A DNA stretch of 64,000 nt, taken from the sequence record MK962756; one strand, written 5' to 3'. Shown here one piece after another: positions 14,325 through 59,272 of this stretch. The DNA comes from Shigella phage JK42. Each line of letters begins with the position of its first letter. Within the stretch, counting starts at the first letter, position 1. The notes beneath the pieces were generated by a model. The model saw nothing but the letters and a program-made list of their open reading frames with translations. It ran no database searches and was not told where the DNA came from. Made by a program: the position numbers and the translations under genes.

Positions 14325-14398
14325 ATTGTTCTCCTCTTGAGTAAGTAAGAATATCTTAACACAGTTTTTAGTGGTTGTAAACTGTAGAAACAAAAAAA

Positions 14399-14416
14399 GG
14401 AATCCCGAAGGATTCC
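14399..14416 (-). terminator. intrinsic terminator GGAATCC-CGAA-GGATTCC plus U7
   Basis: 7-bp stem, 4-nt loop, followed on the minus strand by UUUUUUU; 9 nt downstream of the soc stop. Confidence 0.65.
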
Positions 14417-14692: not shown

Positions 14693-14700
14693 TATTTATA
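14693..14700 (-). promoter_or_regulatory. late promoter motif TATAAATA
   Basis: Plus-strand tatttata, i.e. TATAAATA on the minus strand, ~32 nt upstream of the soc ATG; soc is a late gene. Confidence 0.45.
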
Positions 14701-19950: not shown

Positions 19951-20015
19951 AATGTTTTCCTCTTGGTTTGTGTAAGTACATCATATCATGCCTAGAGGAA
20001 GATGTAAACCCCGAA

Positions 20016-20033
20016 AGGAGACCGAAGTCTCCT
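20016..20033. terminator. hairpin AGGAGAC-CGAA-GTCTCCT; T-tract follows on the plus strand
   Basis: 7-bp stem; plus strand continues TTTTTATT (canonical for the plus orientation); minus strand continues UUCGGGGUUU (weaker); immediately 3' of gene 41. Confidence 0.4.
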
Positions 20034-39425: not shown

Positions 39426-39477
39426 ATTATTTCCTCATTAGTTAATTCATTTTATCATCCATTTATAAAGCAAAAAA

Positions 39478-39495
39478 GGAACTCCGAAGAGTTCC
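39478..39495 (-). terminator. intrinsic terminator GGAACTC-CGAA-GAGTTCC plus U6
   Basis: 7-bp stem; minus strand continues UUUUUUGCU. Confidence 0.55.
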
Positions 39496-50071: not shown

Positions 50072-50376
50072 TATAATGTTCTCTCAAATTTGTGGAAGCA
50101 TTTACGGCATTTCAATTTCAAGTTATCACTGGTCCAGTTAACCAGTTGGACTTGGATAGTTCCACATTCCGGGCATGGATGTTTTGCTGCCGATTTGGCA
50201 GCATTTTCACGTCGTTCAACCATTTTCATTATTTCGTTCCATGCTGGAGGAACAAACTCTTCTTCACCGTGGATTTTATCTCGCTGAACAAATTCAATCT
50301 TTGAACTATCATCAATAAACTTAACCAAGCCATGATTAGTGCTCATATCAATATCCTCTAAAAGACGTAGTTTCAT
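50071..50376 (-). CDS. zinc-ribbon protein
   Basis: 101 aa; C-terminal CPECG...CRKC. Confidence 0.45.
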   Translation of the reverse strand: MKLRLLEDIDMSTNHGLVKFIDDSSKIEFVQRDKIHGEEEFVPPAWNEIMKMVERRENAAKSAAKHPCPECGTIQVQLVNWTSDNLKLKCRKCFHKFERTL

Positions 50377-51326
50377 TATAACACCTCAATGGCATTTCGT
50401 AAACCATCCGCTTTCGCATTCAGAGCTTTTAACGATTTAGTTTGTTCTGCAATCTGGGCTTCGACTTCTTTCAGACGAGATTTGAGATATTCGCGTTCTT
50501 CTCTTAAGTTATCAACTTTTTCTGCTTTAGGCTCTTTAATAGGCTTAGGCTTATACTCGTTAGGGTTCTTCAACTTAATTTGAATGCGAGAACTGTATAA
50601 CATTGAACCATTATCTTCGGTTTCATCATACATTTCTACCACGTCCATGATTCTTAACATCATGCGAAGTTTATAAGACAGCGAACGAATGGTTTTATTG
50701 TGCTTCTTAATTTCTTCAGCTTTCATGGTGCCGAGATTACGTGAGTAATAATAAGGAACCTGAATATCAATTGATAATGATGCGGTACCATTACCGGTTG
50801 GTTTGAACACTGCAGTAACCCAATCTTTAGCATGAACTGTATTTGTACGATCATCGCCGCCTGTGAATAATTTACGAGAATGTTTAAAAAGCATATTCAC
50901 TTGGTTATTGAATTCACAAGCAAATTTATCAGCAAATTTAGTTTCAGGAATGGTAGTTAACCAATCAGCCAAATGAGTCTTTTTAACATCATTAACAATA
51001 GTGAATTCAACCAAATCGGTTTTAGATGTCACAGATTTAATAAAGCTCGGCTTCATAAAGTTTTTAATGTTATCGCGAGCTACAGTAGAAGATAATAAAC
51101 GAGAACGTTTGAACCATTGAAGCAGTGTCCCTAATGAATGAGAATATGCATTTTGAGTATCTTTACAGATATGATTTTCTTGGCCTATGTATGTACCAAA
51201 ATCTCGAAGAATACCACTTACTACATCTCGGTGTGGAACATCAAATCCTAGTACACCAGAAGCACGTTGGGCATGAACGTTAGCGATAAGGCCTGCAAAG
51301 TATTCAATGTAATGTGAACGTGTCAT
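50376..51326 (-). CDS. hypothetical protein with C-terminal coiled coil
   Basis: 316 aa; C-terminus ...REEREYLKSRLKEVEAQIAEQTKSLKALNAKADGLRNAIEVL; driven by repeated promoter copy 2. Confidence 0.5.
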   Translation of the reverse strand: MTRSHYIEYFAGLIANVHAQRASGVLGFDVPHRDVVSGILRDFGTYIGQENHICKDTQNAYSHSLGTLLQWFKRSRLLSSTVARDNIKNFMKPSFIKSVTSKTDLVEFTIVNDVKKTHLADWLTTIPETKFADKFACEFNNQVNMLFKHSRKLFTGGDDRTNTVHAKDWVTAVFKPTGNGTASLSIDIQVPYYYSRNLGTMKAEEIKKHNKTIRSLSYKLRMMLRIMDVVEMYDETEDNGSMLYSSRIQIKLKNPNEYKPKPIKEPKAEKVDNLREEREYLKSRLKEVEAQIAEQTKSLKALNAKADGLRNAIEVL

Positions 51327-51355
51327 AATATTTTCCTCTCGTTAAGATAAATTCA

Positions 51356-51384
51356 TTATACTCCAACCATCCTTGGTTGTAAAC
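51356..51384 (-). promoter_or_regulatory. early promoter TTTACA-N17-TATAAT, copy 2 of the repeated element
   Basis: Plus strand attatactccaaccatccttggttgtaaa; spacer contains the inverted repeat CAACCA-TCCT-TGGTTG. Confidence 0.5.
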
Positions 51385-51388
51385 TGAT

Positions 51389-52348
51389 TTATGATTTTAA
51401 CGCATTCATTGCGTTAAAAAGTTTAGAATACTGCAACTGGAGATTCGTTACAACACTTTGAGCATCACGAAGCTTAGCTTGTGCTTTGTCAAGTTCAACA
51501 GACAGTTGGTCCATAGTGGCCTTGATTTGATTGTAATGGTAATCTTCGACCGGAAGAAGGTCATTAGAAACATTTAGTTTTACTGCAGACAGTTTGCACA
51601 CATTTGGCAAACCTTTAAACATTGATTTACCCGAAGTAGAATAAGCACTTAGGACTTCGGCCTGTTCAATTGGGGTCCCAGTAAGCGATGCTTCAAACAA
51701 TGCATTTTCCTTTTTAAGATTTTGATAGTATTCAGAGTCTTTGTGCCACCACGGCGCAGGAACCTTTTTACCAATAGATACACGAGCCTGGATAGCGATA
51801 TTGCCCTTATTCTTGATAGGGTCGATAATATTAAGCTCACGAGAATAAATTGCTTTAATCTGGTGAATATTATCACCTAAAACTTCCAACGCTTGGTGGA
51901 ATACACGAGCAACGTTATCATTCTTAGGTTTATACGTGAGAGTGAACTCGTTCTCACTGATAACCATGATTTCCAACTTATCGTAAGTATATTTCAAATG
52001 TTTCATGTTAATTGCTTGAGGACGAATACGAGAAGCAATGGCCATCAGATTGTTAAGGTTATTCCGGAACTGCTTAGCGAAATATTGTCCTTCACCGCCA
52101 ATACAAAAATTACGAAGTTTCTGTTTGGCCAATAAACGGCTGAACTCGCCATTTTTAATGAACTCTTTAACGGGTGTGTTAGTAACGCATTCAAATTGAG
52201 TAAACTTACGAGAAGTAATCCCATAATATGAACAGATTTCCTCAATCTCTTCAGGAGTCTTTACAGGCATACGGATAGGATTAGGTCCTGGAGTATATGC
52301 GTTCGAGGTAAATTCTTTGATAAGTTCTCTACGTGTAATAAAAGCCAT
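51389..52348 (-). CDS. hypothetical protein with C-terminal coiled coil
   Basis: 319 aa; C-terminus ...LSVELDKAQAKLRDAQSVVTNLQLQYSKLFNAMNALKS; driven by repeated promoter copy 3. Confidence 0.5.
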   Translation of the reverse strand: MAFITRRELIKEFTSNAYTPGPNPIRMPVKTPEEIEEICSYYGITSRKFTQFECVTNTPVKEFIKNGEFSRLLAKQKLRNFCIGGEGQYFAKQFRNNLNNLMAIASRIRPQAINMKHLKYTYDKLEIMVISENEFTLTYKPKNDNVARVFHQALEVLGDNIHQIKAIYSRELNIIDPIKNKGNIAIQARVSIGKKVPAPWWHKDSEYYQNLKKENALFEASLTGTPIEQAEVLSAYSTSGKSMFKGLPNVCKLSAVKLNVSNDLLPVEDYHYNQIKATMDQLSVELDKAQAKLRDAQSVVTNLQLQYSKLFNAMNALKS

Positions 52349-52374
52349 TTTATATTCCTCATGTTGAAAAATTT

Positions 52375-52403
52375 ATTATACTCCAACCATCCTTGGTTGT
52401 ACA
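52375..52403 (-). promoter_or_regulatory. early promoter TGTACA-N17-TATAAT, copy 3 of the repeated element
   Basis: Plus strand attatactccaaccatccttggttgtaca; identical spacer palindrome. Confidence 0.45.
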
Positions 52404-53399
52404 TCATTCCTTAAGAAGTTTTACTACCTGAATAAGATTAGCTCGTTCTGTTTTATTTTTACCATTTAAGCCTGCTAATCGTGAGATTTCATCGTCAGTC
52501 TGTTGAATAGTTACATTAAGTTCGTTAATCAAAGCTTCAAAGTATTTGATTTGCTCAGCATGTTTTGATTCAAATTTCTGAACCGGAATAACGTCTTGGT
52601 TCAGTTCATCAATAAGGTCTTTAAGAGCATCTTCTTGGTTGATATCATATTCAACTTCTTTTATTTCTTCAACGAGCTCGTCTTTATATCTAACGTCTTT
52701 TAGTCCTGGAGCTGGTCCTGAAATCTCTTCTTTAAGAGTACAAACATACCCAATACGGTATCCAACGCCGTCTCGCTTGATATCAACTTCGTCGATAAAT
52801 CCACAATGTTTAAGTCCAGAGCCGATTATGTCAAAATATCCTTGACGTCGTCCTTCAAACGTTACACGAACTACTAAGACGGTTTTGCCACCGACCTTTT
52901 GAAGCTCACATTTATAAAAGTTTGTTGAACCTGAATAACATGGATGAGTTTTAAAGTTCATCTGACGATCTAGGCCCATTTGTAAACGTGCTGTTACGGC
53001 CATAAAACGTGTTTGGTTCTCGTTAAGATGAGCAACAATCCATTTCAAAGGCATTTTACCCTGTTCACGGCCGAACAAATCAGTACGTCCTAGATTACGC
53101 AGGATGTTGTTAGAGTTAATCATCGACAGAACGTTAAGTTTATTCAGCGCGCTGAAGATTCCATCAGCCATTGATTTTCCATAACCTTTACACGCTTTAA
53201 TAAGTGCTCGCGGCAGATTAGTATAGATTTCAGACGGCATATGAAAATCAAATTTACTAGTCAGTAATTGATGAACTTGGATAGCAATTTGCTCATAATT
53301 AAGTGCTCTGCGATCGTTATGGTCTTTAAACCATACTTTAATCTGTGAAGCACATAAACCGTTAATTTCATGTTTTACCGCATCAGATGTAATGCTCAT
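52404..53399 (-). CDS. hypothetical protein with C-terminal coiled coil
   Basis: 331 aa; C-terminal heptad-like region. Confidence 0.5.
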   Translation of the reverse strand: MSITSDAVKHEINGLCASQIKVWFKDHNDRRALNYEQIAIQVHQLLTSKFDFHMPSEIYTNLPRALIKACKGYGKSMADGIFSALNKLNVLSMINSNNILRNLGRTDLFGREQGKMPLKWIVAHLNENQTRFMAVTARLQMGLDRQMNFKTHPCYSGSTNFYKCELQKVGGKTVLVVRVTFEGRRQGYFDIIGSGLKHCGFIDEVDIKRDGVGYRIGYVCTLKEEISGPAPGLKDVRYKDELVEEIKEVEYDINQEDALKDLIDELNQDVIPVQKFESKHAEQIKYFEALINELNVTIQQTDDEISRLAGLNGKNKTERANLIQVVKLLKE

Positions 53400-54472: not shown

Positions 54473-55474
54473 TTATTTCAGTAAAGTTACTTCAGAGATT
54501 TCCTCCCAACCATCTTTATCAGTTGAAATAAAATCTGCTACATAAAGAGCCGTACGTAATGATACATTGCGAAGACGAGATACGTTAGCCTTCATCCAGG
54601 ACAATGCTTTATACGTTTCTGCATCCGTCAGACCACGTTTCTGCATCATGTCAGTAGATAATATTACATCTTCAACTCGAACCATAATCTCTTCATTAGA
54701 GTGTACTCCAAGGTCGAGATACACTGAACGAGATACTAAAGCTTGAAGATGTGGAGCAAGTTTCGAACCCCGTTCTAACTCTTTATCGATATCAACGTTT
54801 GTAATGAAAACGATAGTACCTTCAAACTCAAATTCTTTATCAATACCCTTATCCTCGAGATAAGATGACGCAGTGCTCCAACAAACTTTGCGTTTATCTC
54901 CGGTATCTAATGCTGCTTTAAGAAGGTTCAGGATGTCCATATCTGAGAATACGTCAACGTCATCGATTAAGAGAACGCTGTCTGCATCACGGTTGAGCCA
55001 AAGTTGTTCGTAAAGGCCAATACCAGAGATTTTACCATTAATGCTTTTGTATTTGATGAAACCATTATCATTAGCATTATTAAGTGCTTTATCCAGAGAA
55101 TACGTCTTACCAATACCAGCTGCACCTGAAATAATGAGTGAACGAATTTTGCCATCGATAATACCATTCGTCATCATGTTCATTACTTTAAAGCGTTTGT
55201 TGATACGGGTTTTCATATCTTCAGTGCTTTCAACAACTGCAACTGGTGATGTCTCAACTCCTTCCGTTACGATGTCTGATTTGAAGACCCATACTCCACG
55301 TTCAGAACCATCAATAATAACGAAAATTTTACCATCACCTAAGTGGGAACATTCAGGATTAAGCTTTGCCGGGAACCATGTCTTTGTGGCAACATAAGAA
55401 CCAGAGATTTCGTTATTACGATAGATACCTTTTTTGATTTGAACGTTGAACATTTTATTCTCCAATTTACTCAT
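54473..55474 (-). CDS. P-loop ATPase (AAA-like)
   Basis: 333 aa; Walker A GAAGIGKT, Walker B-like VLLIDDVD. Confidence 0.55.
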   Translation of the reverse strand: MSKLENKMFNVQIKKGIYRNNEISGSYVATKTWFPAKLNPECSHLGDGKIFVIIDGSERGVWVFKSDIVTEGVETSPVAVVESTEDMKTRINKRFKVMNMMTNGIIDGKIRSLIISGAAGIGKTYSLDKALNNANDNGFIKYKSINGKISGIGLYEQLWLNRDADSVLLIDDVDVFSDMDILNLLKAALDTGDKRKVCWSTASSYLEDKGIDKEFEFEGTIVFITNVDIDKELERGSKLAPHLQALVSRSVYLDLGVHSNEEIMVRVEDVILSTDMMQKRGLTDAETYKALSWMKANVSRLRNVSLRTALYVADFISTDKDGWEEISEVTLLK

Positions 55475-55552
55475 TTCGTTTCGATAGGTCTATAATAACA
55501 TATCCTAAAAGCATGTACACTACTTTTTTTAAAAATATTTTAACCCCCTAAA

Positions 55553-55568
55553 GGGACCCGAAGGTCCC
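55553..55568 (-). terminator. hairpin GGGACC-CGAA-GGTCCC
   Basis: 6-bp GC-rich stem 6 nt past the stop of 55574..55840; weak U tract. Confidence 0.4.
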
Positions 55569-55573
55569 CGCAT

Positions 55574-55840
55574 TTACTTATCGCACTTAGCAACATAATT
55601 AGGCATATCACAGAATACGGAGCGAGTAACTATTCGTCCCTTTGACCATGCTTCAGTTGCTTGTCCGGCCGTGCTATTAATATAGCTTGATTTGATATTC
55701 TCAATACCCTGAGAATGTGATGCATTTACCGAACCGTTGGAAGGCCCAGAAGACTGGTTACCACCAGCTCCTGTACCTGTGGTAGCACCAACAGAGAATG
55801 CCATCATTACTGCGAATAAACCAATTACTAATTTTTTCAT
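55574..55840 (-). CDS. secreted small protein (signal peptide)
   Basis: 88 aa; N-terminal MKKLVIGLFAVMMAFSVGA; TATAAATA late motif ~33 nt upstream. Confidence 0.5.
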   Translation of the reverse strand: MKKLVIGLFAVMMAFSVGATTGTGAGGNQSSGPSNGSVNASHSQGIENIKSSYINSTAGQATEAWSKGRIVTRSVFCDMPNYVAKCDK

Positions 55841-55871
55841 ATTTACCTCAAGTTAAGAGTTATTTATCTAC

Positions 55872-56861
55872 TTATTTATAGTAAGAATTATGATTTTCGA
55901 GATAGACTTGCTCAAGGAAATCATCCCAGAAACTCATATCTACTTTTTGTTGCATACCGTTCTTAGCGGCTTGTTCTGACGCATGTTCAACTTGGTCAAC
56001 GATATCTTCTAGGAATTCTTGTACAGTTTTAAACGTATGTTTACCAAGCTTAACATCGAGAATAAATGGAGCATCCTGAAGTGGGTAAACCAGGTCGCCG
56101 GTTTTGTAAATTTCCAATAATTGAAGTCCACCACGACATGCATGACTCAATGCTTTCCAGTCAATACCTTCGTTGGCTTCTGCCTTACGAGCACGTTCGC
56201 CATAGTTCTCTTCCAGTTTAACCAGGATGGCATTGAACTCTTTATTGGTTAACGTATCTTGGAATTTACGGTCTAACAGATTATAGAATGTTTGCTTACC
56301 TGTTTTCTCGTTTTCGGTTTCAACCCACGAAGCAAATTCACCTACGGGCAGAACATTCTTCATATGTGATAAACGAATTACTGCACCATTATCAAAGTAT
56401 TGTCCCCATTCATTAGAACGTTTAAGGGCTTGACGAAGAACAGCCAGTCGAGAACCCTTAACACCGTATTTAGAAGCTTGCTTACGGACATACCCTAAAT
56501 AAGATTTCATGTTAGTGGTATAGAAACGAGACCTGTTATCTTGAATATACTTCCATACATCAGGCAAATCAGATTTAACTACTAGACTTTGTGGAGTGTG
56601 AAGCATATCTAATGCGACGGTTTCACCATCCGCAGCTAGTTTAAAGAAATATTTGAGACTATACAACTCATGGTCCACGTCGTCTTTTGTGTTCTTAGAA
56701 GATGTGTTATTCGTGTTCTTGCTCATGTGTTCTTTAACGTTACCGGTCAAGATATCACGAGCATGAGGGACATAAATTTCTTTAAAATCGACATCAGATT
56801 CAGGAGTAGACGTTCCATAAAGGTGGCTACCAAAGTAGCCTTTCATAATTGTTTTCATCAT
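55872..56861 (-). CDS. polymerase-beta-type nucleotidyltransferase-fold protein
   Basis: 329 aa; N-terminal ...GYFGSHLYGTSTPESDVDF... fits the GS-x9-13-DxD minimal NTase motif; helical C-terminal domain. Confidence 0.5.
   Translation of the reverse strand: MMKTIMKGYFGSHLYGTSTPESDVDFKEIYVPHARDILTGNVKEHMSKNTNNTSSKNTKDDVDHELYSLKYFFKLAADGETVALDMLHTPQSLVVKSDLPDVWKYIQDNRSRFYTTNMKSYLGYVRKQASKYGVKGSRLAVLRQALKRSNEWGQYFDNGAVIRLSHMKNVLPVGEFASWVETENEKTGKQTFYNLLDRKFQDTLTNKEFNAILVKLEENYGERARKAEANEGIDWKALSHACRGGLQLLEIYKTGDLVYPLQDAPFILDVKLGKHTFKTVQEFLEDIVDQVEHASEQAAKNGMQQKVDMSFWDDFLEQVYLENHNSYYK
55873..55880 (-). promoter_or_regulatory. late promoter motif TATAAATA
   Basis: Plus-strand tatttata upstream of the secreted-protein gene. 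Confidence 0.4.
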
Positions 56862-57340: not shown

Positions 57341-57871
57341 TTATTTCAAAGTTGGGATAATAGAATCGAGATAAGCTTTAAGAGCAACTGCTTCATCTTT
57401 GTCTAATGTAATGATATGCTGACGAAGGTCATCAATTTGGCGAATAACTACGACATCACCGTCTTCATAAGAAGGATTAACGCCTAGGACTGTTGTATAG
57501 TCAGGGCGGTCCTGATTTGTAATAAAAGCATTACGGCATTTAGCCCATTGAAGTTTGGCCTTTTTGGCAGTTTCAGATTCTATGAATTCTTTCACCTTAG
57601 TGACGAATGTTTTCCAATTATTGATAGAAAGGCATTCATCTTCTGTTTCGATATTAACCCCACTATAAAGACCGTGATAAAAACGAACTTGAAGGTCTTC
57701 ATCAATGTTAATTACAGATGCATGGCCGGGCGGATTGAGTTTCAAAATCTTGTCCAGTTCCATAGGAAGAATAGTAACAGCATCATCTTCTTGTGTCAGA
57801 ACGTAAGCATAACCACGTTTTTCGATACATAAATCGCCAAACAACTCGGTTGTTTCAATTACAGTTTTCAT
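57341..57871 (-). CDS. hypothetical protein
   Basis: ORF-track 57341..57883 trimmed to the first ATG (the track start is TTG). Confidence 0.5.
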   Translation of the reverse strand: MKTVIETTELFGDLCIEKRGYAYVLTQEDDAVTILPMELDKILKLNPPGHASVINIDEDLQVRFYHGLYSGVNIETEDECLSINNWKTFVTKVKEFIESETAKKAKLQWAKCRNAFITNQDRPDYTTVLGVNPSYEDGDVVVIRQIDDLRQHIITLDKDEAVALKAYLDSIIPTLK

Positions 57872-57872
57872 A

Positions 57873-58052
57873 TTATTCACCAATTAAAGTTTCAACAAAA
57901 TTCACCAAAGCATTCTGGCAAGCGTCAACCTGATTTTCATAAAAATCTCCGTTATCATTTACCGCATGATAAGCTACATCATTCAAATCTGAATCAGCTT
58001 CACGTAAGTCACGGATAAGGTCCATCAATTTATTAGCTTGTTCACGGGTCAT
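57873..58052 (-). CDS. small hypothetical acidic protein
   Basis: Hand translation: MTREQANKLMDLIRDLREADSDLNDVAYHAVNDNGDFYENQVDACQNALVNFVETLIGE (59 aa); coupled to the upstream small ORF by ATGA. Confidence 0.3.
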   Translation of the reverse strand: MTREQANKLMDLIRDLREADSDLNDVAYHAVNDNGDFYENQVDACQNALVNFVETLIGE

Positions 58053-59027: not shown

Positions 59028-59240
59028 TTAATTTTGGCCAGTATTTATTTTTCGCCTTTGGACGGCCTTAACATCTGCGAGGTATTTTTCCAGCTTGCGC
59101 TTGCGTGTATAATCAGCTTTAGAACCAGTTTGACGGATATCCTCGTTTAAATGAGAAATAGAATGTCCTAATTCTCTTCGGATTTCATCTAATTGGGTTA
59201 CAGTAAGATTACGAAGTTGTCTTTCGTTTAATTGCTGCAT
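59028..59240 (-). CDS. hypothetical small basic protein
   Basis: 70-aa ORF; TATAAATA late motif at 59265-59272. Confidence 0.45.
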
Positions 59241-59264: not shown

Positions 59265-59272
59265 TATTTATA
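59265..59272 (-). promoter_or_regulatory. late promoter motif TATAAATA
   Basis: Plus-strand tatttata ~25 nt upstream of the 59240 start; overlaps the tk stop. Confidence 0.4.

What the first reader, a model, noticed from the sequence alone, without database searches (positions are those of the whole stretch)
54473..56861. P-loop ATPase, secreted protein and pol-beta-type nucleotidyltransferase cluster
A 333-aa Walker A/B ATPase (GAAGIGKT, LLIDDVD) lies next to a 329-aa protein whose N-terminus (GSHLYGTSTPESDVDF) fits the minimal nucleotidyltransferase fold shared by poly(A) polymerase, CCA-adding enzymes and cGAS/DncV-like enzymes. A small secreted protein with its own late-promoter motif sits between them. 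Phage NTase-fold proteins may act in RNA modification or in interference with host nucleotide signalling.
Basis: partly seen in the sequence, partly recalled or inferred. Interest (0 to 1): 0.5.

Follow-up and report, generated by a model that had tools for sequence, protein, structure and literature searches.

The report
Known T4 RNA-repair nucleotidyltransferase neighbourhood
This stretch of a T4-like phage holds three separately controlled genes already catalogued in T4-type phages (an RlaP-family enzyme that most likely adds missing nucleotides to broken transfer RNAs, a stand-alone AAA+ ATPase of unknown role, and a sporadic small secreted protein), so it is an ordinary, known region rather than a new system.

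Summary
The three ORFs are real. The window is a Tequatrovirus, about 99% identical to Shigella phage JK45. The ORFs are the orthologues of T4 nrdC.10 (AAA+ ATPase, 77% identity) and nrdC.11 (nucleotidyltransferase, 80% identity), with an 88-aa signal-peptide ORF between them.

NrdC.11 passes Pfam RlaP (PF10127), and its G-S / D-x-D / D motif set is conserved in homologues. A 2025 preprint showed that bacterial RlaP enzymes add 1-2 nucleotides to RNA 3'-OH ends, and it names T4 NrdC.11 as a member. Full-length NrdC.11-type relatives in bacterial chromosomes sit beside RtcB, Pnkp, Hen1, Ro60 and RNA ligases, often next to a canonical RlaP. RNA repair is therefore the best-supported role. Nothing supports interference with nucleotide signalling.

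The three genes are not a module:
- A terminator and a promoter separate nrdC.11 from nrdC.10, here and in T4.
- Each of the two large genes occurs widely without the other.
- The small ORF is present in only about 100 phage records and sits at a known type of shuffling site (PeSL).

NrdC.10 belongs to a large phage AAA+ family with no assigned function. Verdict: already known, modest interest.

The parts
55872..56861 (-). nrdC.11 orthologue: 'long-type' RlaP-family nucleotidyltransferase (328/329 aa). N-terminal Pol-beta NTase domain, C-terminal helical domain with a small beta insert.
   Evidence: Pfam PF10127 RlaP at 49.5 bits (cutoff 23); phrog_388 at E 4e-126. 80% identical to T4 NrdC.11. 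In 76 homologues: G10 in 73, S11 in 74, D22 and D24 in 75, D60 and D62 in all 76. AF2 model pLDDT 87.5. hhalign to canonical RlaP gives probability 89.6 and E 1.9e-6.
55574..55840 (-). 88-aa accessory ORF with a Sec-type signal peptide. The mature part is about 68 aa, rich in Ser/Gly/Asn, with two C-terminal Cys.
   Evidence: phrog_2243, unknown function. Found in only 102 phage records, all Escherichia/Shigella T-even types. Absent from T4 and from a relative whose NTase is 98% identical. Hydropathy of the N-terminus.
54473..55453 (-). nrdC.10 orthologue: AAA+ ATPase (326 aa from Met8; the ORF extends to 55474). It has an N-terminal five-strand beta domain, then the AAA+ core and lid.
   Evidence: phrog_1250 at E 5e-161; weak AAA_22 and AAA_16 hits. 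AF2 pLDDT 95. G110/G113/G115/K116, D164/D165, N219, R242 and R300 are invariant in 94 homologues. Foldseek finds only generic AAA+ matches.
55873..55880 (-). TATAAATA, the T4 late-promoter consensus. It overlaps the nrdC.11 stop codon, 32 nt upstream of the small ORF's ATG.
   Evidence: Conserved in L092, absent in L150; T4 has TATAAATG at the same place.
55550..55569 (-). Hairpin GGGGACC-TTCG-GGTCCC followed by Ts: a terminator-like stem-loop directly after the small ORF's stop codon.
   Evidence: The equivalent hairpin GGGAGCC-TTCG-GGCTCCC plus a T run follows nrdC.11 in T4.
55492..55519 (-). Promoter-like element for nrdC.10 (TGTACA-16-TATTAT, containing a TGCTT Mot-box-like motif). Together with the hairpin it forms a composite terminator/promoter of the PeSL/PmSL type.
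   Evidence: Promoter scan; sequence. T4 has TTTACA-N17-TACTAT at the same place. PeSL/PmSL consensus from PMC4122927.
56858..57331 (-). Upstream 157-aa membrane-protein gene whose stop codon overlaps the nrdC.11 start (ATGA). This is context; T4 has mobD here instead.
   Evidence: Two hydrophobic segments. A homologue lies near the NTase in 49 fetched loci. T4 mobD.

Best explanation
The region is the nrdC.10-nrdC.11 segment of the nrdC-tk hyperplastic region of a T-even phage. It holds three independently transcribed genes, not one system.

(1) NrdC.11 is a divergent 'long' member of the RlaP family of Pol-beta nucleotidyltransferases. Inferred mechanism:
- A host anticodon nuclease such as RloC breaks a tRNA and removes a nucleotide.
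- The phage polynucleotide kinase/phosphatase heals the ends.
- NrdC.11 uses its G-S / D22-x-D24 / D62 metal site to add one or two untemplated nucleotides to the 3'-OH of the 5' fragment.
- RNA ligase 1 seals the break, which restores at least a fraction of functional tRNA.

(2) NrdC.10 is a catalytically competent, probably oligomeric AAA+ ATPase. It belongs to a large phage-specific family of unknown function and is not mechanistically tied to NrdC.11.

(3) The 88-aa ORF is an optional secreted protein. It is inserted just upstream of a composite terminator/promoter (PeSL/PmSL-like) element that separates the two conserved genes, and it is probably expressed late from its own TATAAATA.

Shown here: gene identities, family membership, conserved catalytic residues, transcription-signal sequences, distributions and genomic contexts. 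Inferred: the substrate, the order of the repair steps and the biological target.
For: Identity:
- The region is about 99% identical to JK45 and many other Tequatrovirus genomes.
- The gene order nrdC ... nrdC.10, nrdC.11 ... rI, tk matches T4.

RlaP membership:
- Pfam RlaP scores 49.5 bits against a cutoff of 23.
- The preprint places T4 NrdC.11 in PF10127 cluster 5. It shows that bacterial RlaP enzymes add 1-2 NMP to RNA 3'-OH, prefer nicked-tRNA mimics, and partly restore aminoacylation of a tRNA lacking one anticodon-loop nucleotide.
- The catalytic motifs are essentially invariant.
- They align with those of canonical RlaP: G-S, D-x-D, and window D62 to canonical D82.
- D22/D24 and D60/D62 lie at the starts of strands 23-30 and 61-67 of a confident model.

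Context of this subfamily in bacteria:
- Of 80 loci, 23 have RtcB, Pnkp, Ro60, Hen1 or an Rnl1-type ligase within 6 kb.
- 19 loci have a tandem second RlaP.
- The top neighbour clusters are RtcB (9 loci), Pnkp (7), Ro60 (6), Hen1 (5) and Rnl1-type ligase (4).
- Example L234: Hen1, Pnkp, NrdC.11-type, canonical RlaP, RNA ligase.

Repair partners in the phage:
- The near-identical JK45 genome encodes polynucleotide kinase and RNA ligase 1.
- Their 5'-P/3'-OH chemistry is compatible with an RlaP product.
- T4 repair enzymes alone give mostly wobble-less junctions on RloC products.
- nrdC.11 is dispensable in the laboratory, as expected for a counter-defence gene.

Not a module:
- A hairpin and a promoter lie between nrdC.11 and nrdC.10, here and in T4.
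- Only 1 of 80 ATPase-anchored viral loci has the NTase nearby.
- 43 of 79 NTase-anchored viral loci and all 80 cellular NTase loci lack the ATPase.
- Where both genes are present, the spacer varies from near zero to about 2.3 kb.
- The small ORF is in 102 records, against 1311 for NrdC.10 and 1520 for NrdC.11.
Against: - No biochemistry exists for any NrdC.11-type protein. The characterised enzymes are short canonical RlaPs.
- Only the N-terminal ~126 columns align between the two types. The Pfam match covers only profile positions 23-148 of 249. The C-terminal substrate-binding half is therefore different.
- In bacteria the long and short forms often occur together, so they may not do the same job.
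- In this phage the NTase is about 80 kb from pnk and rnlA. The link to repair rests on family membership and on bacterial contexts.
- Only 23 of the 80 bacterial loci show a repair gene nearby.
- Two ATPase loci (L030, L079) have Pnk-domain genes directly upstream, one with Rnl1. A link between NrdC.10 and RNA repair cannot be fully excluded.
Confidence: 0.6

Rival explanations
1. NrdC.11 acts on RNA 3' ends, but not for repair of anticodon-nuclease damage. It might tail host or phage RNAs, mend tRNA acceptor ends, or mark RNAs for decay or stabilisation during host takeover.
For: RlaP enzymes label rRNA, full-length tRNA and cleaved tRNA in total E. coli RNA, with little NTP specificity. In the phage, the gene is not next to pnk or rnlA. 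Its C-terminal domain differs from canonical RlaP.
Against: The recurrent bacterial neighbours of the NrdC.11 type are RNA-repair and RNA-quality-control genes: RtcB, Pnkp/Hen1, Ro60 and Rnl1-type ligase. RlaP prefers the 3' end at the nick of a cleaved-tRNA mimic over the acceptor end.
Confidence: 0.15
2. The ATPase and the NTase (with or without the small protein) work together as one module, for example an AAA+ factor that delivers or remodels the RNA substrate for the NTase.
For: The two genes are adjacent on the same strand, in the order NTase then ATPase, in 36 of 79 NTase-anchored viral loci, including the Acinetobacter phages. In two distant contigs the ATPase lies directly after Pnk-domain genes, one of them with Rnl1.
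Against: A terminator and a promoter sit between the genes in this phage and in T4. Only 1 of 80 ATPase-anchored loci has the NTase. None of the 80 cellular NTase loci has the ATPase. Genus counts diverge: Klebsiella 286 versus 149, Vibrio 59 versus 121. Outside the T-evens, the ATPase's recurrent neighbour is a UvsW-like helicase, in 56 of 78 loci. The adjacency is confined to Straboviridae, which have conserved synteny.
Confidence: 0.1
3. NrdC.11 nucleotidylylates something other than RNA, such as a protein or a small molecule, like the aminoglycoside/lincosamide NTases, MNT antitoxins, DrrA or GlnE that share its two-domain architecture.
For: The structural neighbours include KNTase/ANT(4'), LinB, AadA, MNT-HEPN, DrrA and GlnE. 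The C-terminal bundle gives HEPN-like matches. The C-terminal half does not align with canonical RlaP.
Confidence: 0.08
4. NrdC.11 interferes with host nucleotide-based immune signalling. It could do so by making or capping signal molecules for CBASS-type systems, or by producing oligo(deoxy)adenylate mimics of the Hailong HalB product.
Against: There is no PADLOC or Pfam hit to CD-NTase or defence families. No cGAS/DncV-type structure is among the listed best matches. The HalB similarity is at the level of the fold. Family membership and bacterial contexts point to RNA repair.
Confidence: 0.04

Closest known systems
T4 NrdC.11 and NrdC.10 (NP_049709, NP_049708)
   Same: These are the orthologues: 80% and 77% identity, the same order and strand, the same genomic region between nrdC and tk, and the same hairpin-plus-promoter spacer.
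   Different: This phage has an extra 88-aa ORF in the spacer. It has a membrane-protein gene instead of the mobD homing endonuclease upstream. It has a Mot-box/TATTAT promoter instead of T4's TTTACA-N17-TACTAT.
RlaP (PF10127) nucleotidyltransferases PfRlaP/PaRlaP of Pseudomonas (bioRxiv 10.64898/2025.12.29.696909)
   Same: The same Pfam family. The G-S, D-x-D and third Asp all align. Both have an N-terminal NTase domain plus a C-terminal helical domain. Relatives of both types lie in RtcB and Pnkp/Hen1 repair operons.
   Different: NrdC.11 is about 65 residues longer. It has a loop insert (KNTxDDVD) before the third Asp and a beta insert at about residues 176-200. Its C-terminal half does not align with canonical RlaP. 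In bacteria it often co-occurs with a canonical RlaP rather than replacing it. It has no biochemistry of its own.
Two-domain Pol-beta NTases with a helical (HEPN-like) C-domain: 3c18, kanamycin NTase ANT(4'), LinB, AadA
   Same: The overall architecture. These are among the best structural matches in the PDB.
Hailong HalB nucleotidyltransferase (PDB 9dbh)
   Different: 16% identity. HalB is a host defence component that makes oligodeoxyadenylate. There is no HalA-like partner here and no PADLOC hit.
AAA+ ATPases of the clamp-loader/initiator and RuvB-like groups (RFC, Cdc6/ORC1, DnaC-like, RuvB)
   Same: NrdC.10 has Walker A/B, sensor 1 Asn, an Arg in an SRS motif that a weak sub-threshold stretch aligns with the RFC SRC motif, a lid domain and a sensor-2 Arg.
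   Different: Only fold-level similarity (TM about 0.4; profile E about 0.01). It has a distinct N-terminal beta domain. T4-type phages already have their own clamp loader and helicase loader (established knowledge). The 'clamp loader' annotation seen in some records is not justified.
PeSL/PmSL composite terminator-promoter cassettes of T4-type phages (PMC2839356, PMC4122927)
   Same: A stem-loop followed by an early (T4) or Mot-box/TATTAT (this phage) promoter. The element lies in a hyperplastic region and is flanked by ORFs that differ between close relatives.
   Different: This particular site is not mentioned in the PeSL text that I searched. Recombination at it is inferred from comparing relatives.

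Membership tests
RlaP (Pfam PF10127) | Scores above the family's curated Pfam threshold | tested here: met
   49.5 bits against a cutoff of 23, E 5.9e-13. Only profile positions 23-148 of 249 are matched. All listed homologues carry precomputed PF10127.
RlaP (Pfam PF10127) | Pol-beta NTase catalytic set: G-S, D-x-D and a third strictly conserved Asp | tested here: met
   In 76 homologues: G10 in 73, S11 in 74, D22 and D24 in 75, D60 and D62 in all 76. hhalign aligns these with G-S, D43-x-D45 and D82 of canonical RlaP. The residues lie at the starts of strands 23-30 and 61-67 in the model.
RlaP (Pfam PF10127) | C-terminal helical domain homologous to that of PfRlaP, forming the RNA-binding cleft | tested here: inconclusive
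   The model has a helical C-terminal domain. hhalign aligns only the first 126 columns with canonical RlaP. The PfRlaP structure did not appear among the hits in the PDB copies searched. afdb50 was unavailable.
RlaP (Pfam PF10127) | Genomic association with RNA ligases or RNA-repair genes (the basis of the family's name) | tested here: met
   Not met inside the window: pnk and rnlA lie about 80 kb away in JK45. Met for the NrdC.11 subfamily in bacteria: 23 of 80 loci have RtcB, Pnkp, Hen1, Ro60 or an Rnl1-type ligase within 6 kb. Met loosely in some phages: L007, L155, L161, L163, L164.
RlaP (Pfam PF10127) | Adds 1-2 NMP to RNA 3'-OH, with Mn2+ preferred | not testable with these tools
   Biochemistry exists only for PfRlaP and PaRlaP.
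cGAS/DncV-like nucleotidyltransferases (CD-NTases) | Sequence or structural match to the CD-NTase core | tested here: not met
CCA-adding enzyme / poly(A) polymerase (PF01743) | Match to the PolyA_pol head domain | tested here: not met
   No Pfam hit. No such structure among the listed best matches.
AAA+ ATPases | Walker A, Walker B, sensor 1, arginine finger, alpha-helical lid with sensor 2 | tested here: met
   G110xxG113xG115K116[T/S], D164-D165, N219, R242 and R300 are invariant in 94 sequences. The model (pLDDT 95) shows the alpha-beta-alpha core plus a helical lid. 166 PDB matches with E of 1e-3 or better; all of the listed top 50 are AAA+ proteins. Pfam AAA-type hits fall below the curated thresholds.
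Clamp loader (RFC / T4 gp44 type), as annotated in some records | Specific similarity to clamp-loader subunits beyond the generic AAA+ fold | tested here: not met
   Profile against PDB: RFC4 at E 0.012, on a par with Cdc6, ORC1, mS29 and DnaC-like proteins. phrog_168 at E 2.6e-4 only. Foldseek ranks RuvB, NSF, proteasome and dynein equally.
PeSL/PmSL composite terminator-promoter element | Stem-loop followed by an early promoter (TTTACW-N17-TAYWAT) or by a TGCTT Mot box with a TATTAT -10, in a hyperplastic region next to variable ORFs | tested here: met
   T4 spacer: hairpin plus TTTACA-N17-TACTAT. Window: hairpin plus TGCTT ... TATTAT. The ORF content differs between relatives that are 98-99% identical. 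Consensus from PMC4122927. Function was not tested.
T4 late promoter | TATAAATA at -10, upstream of a late-expressed gene | tested here: inconclusive
   An exact motif lies 32 nt before the ATG. It is not conserved in L150. No transcript data are available.

The most novel reading that the evidence does not exclude
NrdC.11 may not be a repair enzyme at all. It could be a counter-defence signal mimic. Like its closest solved structural neighbour, the Hailong enzyme HalB, it would make short oligo(deoxy)adenylates (bacterial RlaP accepts dATP) that keep a host effector silenced or jam nucleotide-sensing immunity. The large NrdC.10 AAA+ family would then be a second, independent orphan.

A milder and likelier version: the 'long' RlaP type is a functionally distinct partner of canonical RlaP, and it is the missing third enzyme that lets the T4 Pnk-Rnl1 pathway reverse wobble-nucleotide excision by RloC. 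I put that version at about 0.3.
Probability: 0.04. Interest if true: 0.75.

Novelty: already known. Interest (0 to 1): 0.28.

Why it matters
T4 is where RNA repair was discovered. RloC-type nucleases were proposed to defeat T4's Pnk/Rnl1 repair by removing the wobble nucleotide. If NrdC.11 restores that nucleotide, the T-even phages already carry the counter-measure, and a simple deletion-plus-RloC experiment would show it. This idea is already in the literature for the RlaP family.

What this analysis adds is modest:
- The NrdC.11 type is a distinct long subfamily. It sits in bacterial RtcB and Pnkp/Hen1 operons, often in tandem with a canonical RlaP.
- The neighbouring AAA+ ATPase belongs to a very large phage family with no assigned function and is not its partner.
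- Many database records mislabel both proteins as thioredoxin.

Tried and rejected
- **PDB sequence searches.** Single-sequence and profile searches for the NTase gave only chance hits. The PfRlaP structure did not turn up in the PDB copies searched.
- **First big-database search.** It returned only sequences at least 99% identical, which were useless for an alignment. I fixed this by querying with profiles of distant homologues.
- **afdb50 fold search.** Unavailable.
- **Other libraries.** NCBIfam and PADLOC gave nothing significant for any of the four proteins. Rfam gave no hit in the whole window.
- **Three-gene module.** Considered and rejected on transcription signals and distributions.
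- **ATPase as an RNA-repair factor.** Two of 80 loci have Pnk-domain genes directly upstream. By my own rough estimate that is about what chance allows in large phage genomes. The systematic census found a UvsW-like helicase as the recurrent neighbour instead.
- **The helicase link.** It merges into one clade at 50% identity, so I do not treat it as independent evidence of function.
- **Paralogy.** BLAST found none among the neighbouring ~320-aa proteins.
- **Triad geometry.** Model coordinates could not be read.
Full report
**What is there.** The three ORFs exist as described, all on the minus strand. The window is a Tequatrovirus. The 3.4-kb region is 98-99% identical to Shigella phage JK45, APCEc01, the O157 typing phages and about 140 other genomes. 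The gene order (nrdC, a run of nrdC.x genes, then rI, tk, vs, regB) is that of T4.

The 333-aa ORF is the orthologue of T4 nrdC.10 (77% identity), and the 329-aa ORF is the orthologue of T4 nrdC.11 (80% identity). The ATPase most likely starts at Met8, giving 326 aa. Only that ATG has a GGAG at the right distance, and the PHROG profile, RefSeq and T4 all begin there.

The quoted motifs are present. An exact TATAAATA lies at 55873-55880(-), overlaps the nrdC.11 stop codon and ends 32 nt before the small ORF's ATG. The window has only three exact copies, against 7.6 expected, all on the coding strand.

**The nucleotidyltransferase: family.** It passes Pfam RlaP (PF10127) at 49.5 bits against a cutoff of 23, and matches phrog_388 'nucleotidyltransferase'. 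A December 2025 preprint (PMC12776372) characterised two Pseudomonas RlaPs:
- They label only RNA, not DNA or protein.
- They add one or two NMP to a 3'-OH and prefer Mn2+.
- They prefer the 3' end at the nick of a cleaved-tRNA mimic.
- They partly restore aminoacylation of a tRNA that lacks one anticodon-loop nucleotide.

The preprint names T4 NrdC.11 as a member (cluster 5) of unknown function.

**The nucleotidyltransferase: catalytic residues and fold.** I built an alignment of 76 diverse homologues. G10 is present in 73, S11 in 74, D22 and D24 in 75, and D60 and D62 in all 76. The AlphaFold model (pLDDT 87.5) puts D22/D24 and D60/D62 at the starts of two strands of the NTase sheet. A profile-profile comparison with 12 canonical RlaPs aligns G-S, D-x-D and D62 with canonical D82 (probability 89.6%, E 1.9e-6).

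**A distinct 'long' RlaP type with RNA-repair context.** Only the N-terminal ~126 columns align with canonical RlaP. The Pfam match covers only profile positions 23-148 of 249. A scan of one genome per bacterial and archaeal species found 144 relatives, many of them full-length at 30-50% identity and several on megabase contigs.

Clustering all ORFs within 6 kb of 80 of these loci gave these top neighbour families: RtcB (9 loci), Pnkp (7), Ro60/TROVE (6), an SF2 helicase (5), Hen1 (5) and T4-type RNA ligase 1 (4). In total 23 loci have at least one repair gene, and 19 have a second RlaP-cluster ORF in the locus. Where examined (12 loci), that second copy is a canonical RlaP immediately downstream. 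One Chlamydiales contig (L234) reads Hen1, Pnkp, NrdC.11-type, canonical RlaP, RNA ligase.

This ties the NrdC.11 subfamily itself, not only the wider Pfam family, to RNA repair. It also suggests the long and short forms are not redundant. In phages the two forms are separate: canonical RlaP is in 80 records, mostly jumbo phages, while the NrdC.11 type is in 1520 records.

**Likely mechanism (inferred).** The near-identical JK45 genome encodes polynucleotide kinase and RNA ligase 1. Their 5'-P/3'-OH chemistry accepts an RlaP product directly. RloC excises the wobble nucleotide, and T4 repair enzymes alone yield mostly junctions that lack it. NrdC.11 adding a nucleotide between the healing and sealing steps would close that gap. 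The same prediction was made for RlaP in jumbo phages. nrdC.11 can be deleted from T4 in the laboratory, as expected for a host-specific counter-defence gene. I put about 0.9 on RlaP-family membership and about 0.6 on this repair role.

**The ATPase.** The model is very confident (pLDDT 95). It shows a five-strand N-terminal beta domain (residues 1-64), a linker helix, an AAA+ core and a helical lid. Walker A, Walker B, sensor 1 N219, R242 (in an SRS motif that a weak sub-threshold stretch aligns with the RFC SRC motif) and R300 are invariant in 94 homologues. Foldseek finds only generic AAA+ similarity (TM about 0.4) spread over RuvB, RFC, ORC/Cdc6, NSF, sigma-54 activators and BrxL. The 'clamp loader' label in some records is not justified.

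The family is large and has no assigned function: 1439 representatives of 50%-identity clusters at E of 1e-30 or better, and 5370 at 1e-3 or better. Members are 250-420 aa, with a variable N-terminal domain.

**Are the genes a unit? No.**
- **Transcription signals.** In T4, nrdC.11 is followed by a hairpin with a T run, then TTTACA-N17-TACTAT, then GGAG-ATG of nrdC.10. In this window the same layout holds, with a TGCTT Mot-box/TATTAT promoter.
- **ATPase-anchored loci.** Of 80 viral loci, only one has an NrdC.11 relative in its flanks.
- **NTase-anchored loci.** Of 79 viral loci, 36 have the ATPase, always downstream on the same strand, with a spacer from near zero to about 2.3 kb. The other 43 have none. 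None of the 80 cellular NTase loci has it.
- **Distant phages.** Loci from distant Vibrio, Ackermannviridae and jumbo phages carry the ATPase alone.

Outside the T-evens, the ATPase's only recurrent neighbour is a UvsW-like SF2 helicase of about 485 aa, within 3 kb downstream in 56 of 78 loci. Those loci merge into one clade at 50% identity. Two contigs place Pnk-domain genes directly upstream of the ATPase, and one of them also has Rnl1 a little further upstream. That is too few to carry weight.

**The small ORF and the spacer.** The 88-aa protein has a Sec-type signal peptide, belongs to phrog_2243 (unknown function) and occurs in only 102 phage records. T4 lacks it. A relative whose NTase is 98% identical also lacks it, and has a different 72-aa ORF between two copies of the promoter segment. 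A third phage has the small ORF without TATAAATA, and has no nrdC.10.

The stem-loop plus promoter matches the published PeSL/PmSL composite elements that mediate modular shuffling in T4-type hyperplastic regions. The small ORF is thus an optional cassette at a shuffling site.

**Verdict.** It is wrong that the genes form a cluster in the functional sense, and it has no support for interference with nucleotide signalling. The genes are already known and annotated, and the NTase's family assignment is published. Interest is modest.

Noticed in passing
Database records matching window 54473-56861: Many GenBank and UniRef entries label the NrdC.10 and NrdC.11 orthologues 'thioredoxin', apparently carried over from the gene names nrdC.10 and nrdC.11. 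Neither protein has any thioredoxin similarity. Some Acinetobacter phage records call NrdC.10 a 'processivity clamp loader' on weak grounds.
   Followed up: partly
L171-L250 (bacterial genome loci), e.g. L234:1975-8833, L248:6001-7771: In bacterial chromosomes the long NrdC.11-type NTase is often immediately followed by a canonical short RlaP (12 of 33 loci examined; 19 of 80 loci have two RlaP-cluster ORFs). The pair is often embedded in RtcB, Pnkp/Hen1 or Ro60 operons. Two RlaP types side by side suggests a division of labour that the preprint text I read does not address.
   Followed up: partly
L012-L091 (viral contigs anchored on the ATPase): In 56 of 78 environmental phage loci the NrdC.10-family ATPase is followed within 3 kb, on the same strand, by a ~485-aa SF2 helicase (ResIII/DEAD/Helicase_C; two carry the UvsW N-terminal domain). 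These loci form 12 sub-clusters at 70% identity but a single clade at 50%.
   Followed up: partly
L030:7066-10849 and L079:9068-10789: In two large phage contigs the NrdC.10-like ATPase lies directly after a Pnk-type kinase (AAA_33) or a PNKP-type HAD phosphatase gene, and L030 also has a T4-type RNA ligase 1 about 1 kb further upstream. In L030 a UvsW-like helicase with an intein (Hint / Intein_splicing domains) follows two genes downstream.
   Followed up: partly
window 56858-56861: The stop codon of the upstream 157-aa membrane-protein gene overlaps the nrdC.11 start (ATGA), which suggests translational coupling. T4 has the mobD homing endonuclease at this position instead.
   Followed up: no
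window 14693-14700, 55873-55880, 59265-59272 (all minus strand): Exact TATAAATA is under-represented in this early-gene region (3 copies against 7.6 expected). All three copies are on the coding strand. The third lies at the 3' end of tk, just upstream of the next small ORF (59028-59240) and the annotated lysis-inhibition gene.
   Followed up: no
window 14392-14416, 20014-20032, 39472-39495, 55550-55569 (minus strand): There are four TTCG-loop GC-rich hairpins with T runs. Three of them (14392, 20014, 55550) are followed within about 30-50 nt by promoter-like sequence and a Shine-Dalgarno/ATG, so they resemble PeSL-type composite elements; at 39472 an SD/ATG follows but the promoter-like part is less clear.
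   Followed up: no
L093:10985-11390: A relative whose NTase is 98% identical carries, in place of the 88-aa ORF, a 72-aa ORF (MKTKMLEMIREAGDKGLMVNTRD...). It is bracketed by two copies of the segment ATGTTATTATAGACCTATC. A homologue of this ORF replaces nrdC.10 in L150. This looks like cassette exchange at this site.
   Followed up: partly
Phage record OL964745.1 (T4, 159,752 bp): This T4 record retains only the last ~39 codons of nrdC.11. That is consistent with the engineered genome-reduced T4 in which nrdC.11-mobD.3 was removable (PMC9825161).
   Followed up: no
window 57341-57883 (minus strand): A 180-aa protein with strong matches to the Pfam T4 y05I-like putative transcription factor N- and C-terminal domains (E 4e-41 and 1e-19) lies two genes upstream of nrdC.11.
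   Followed up: no
window 50376-53399 (minus strand): Three consecutive proteins of about 320 aa (one is DUF7235) all end in predicted coiled-coil-like, Lys/Glu/Leu-rich tails. BLAST finds no similarity between them.
   Followed up: partly
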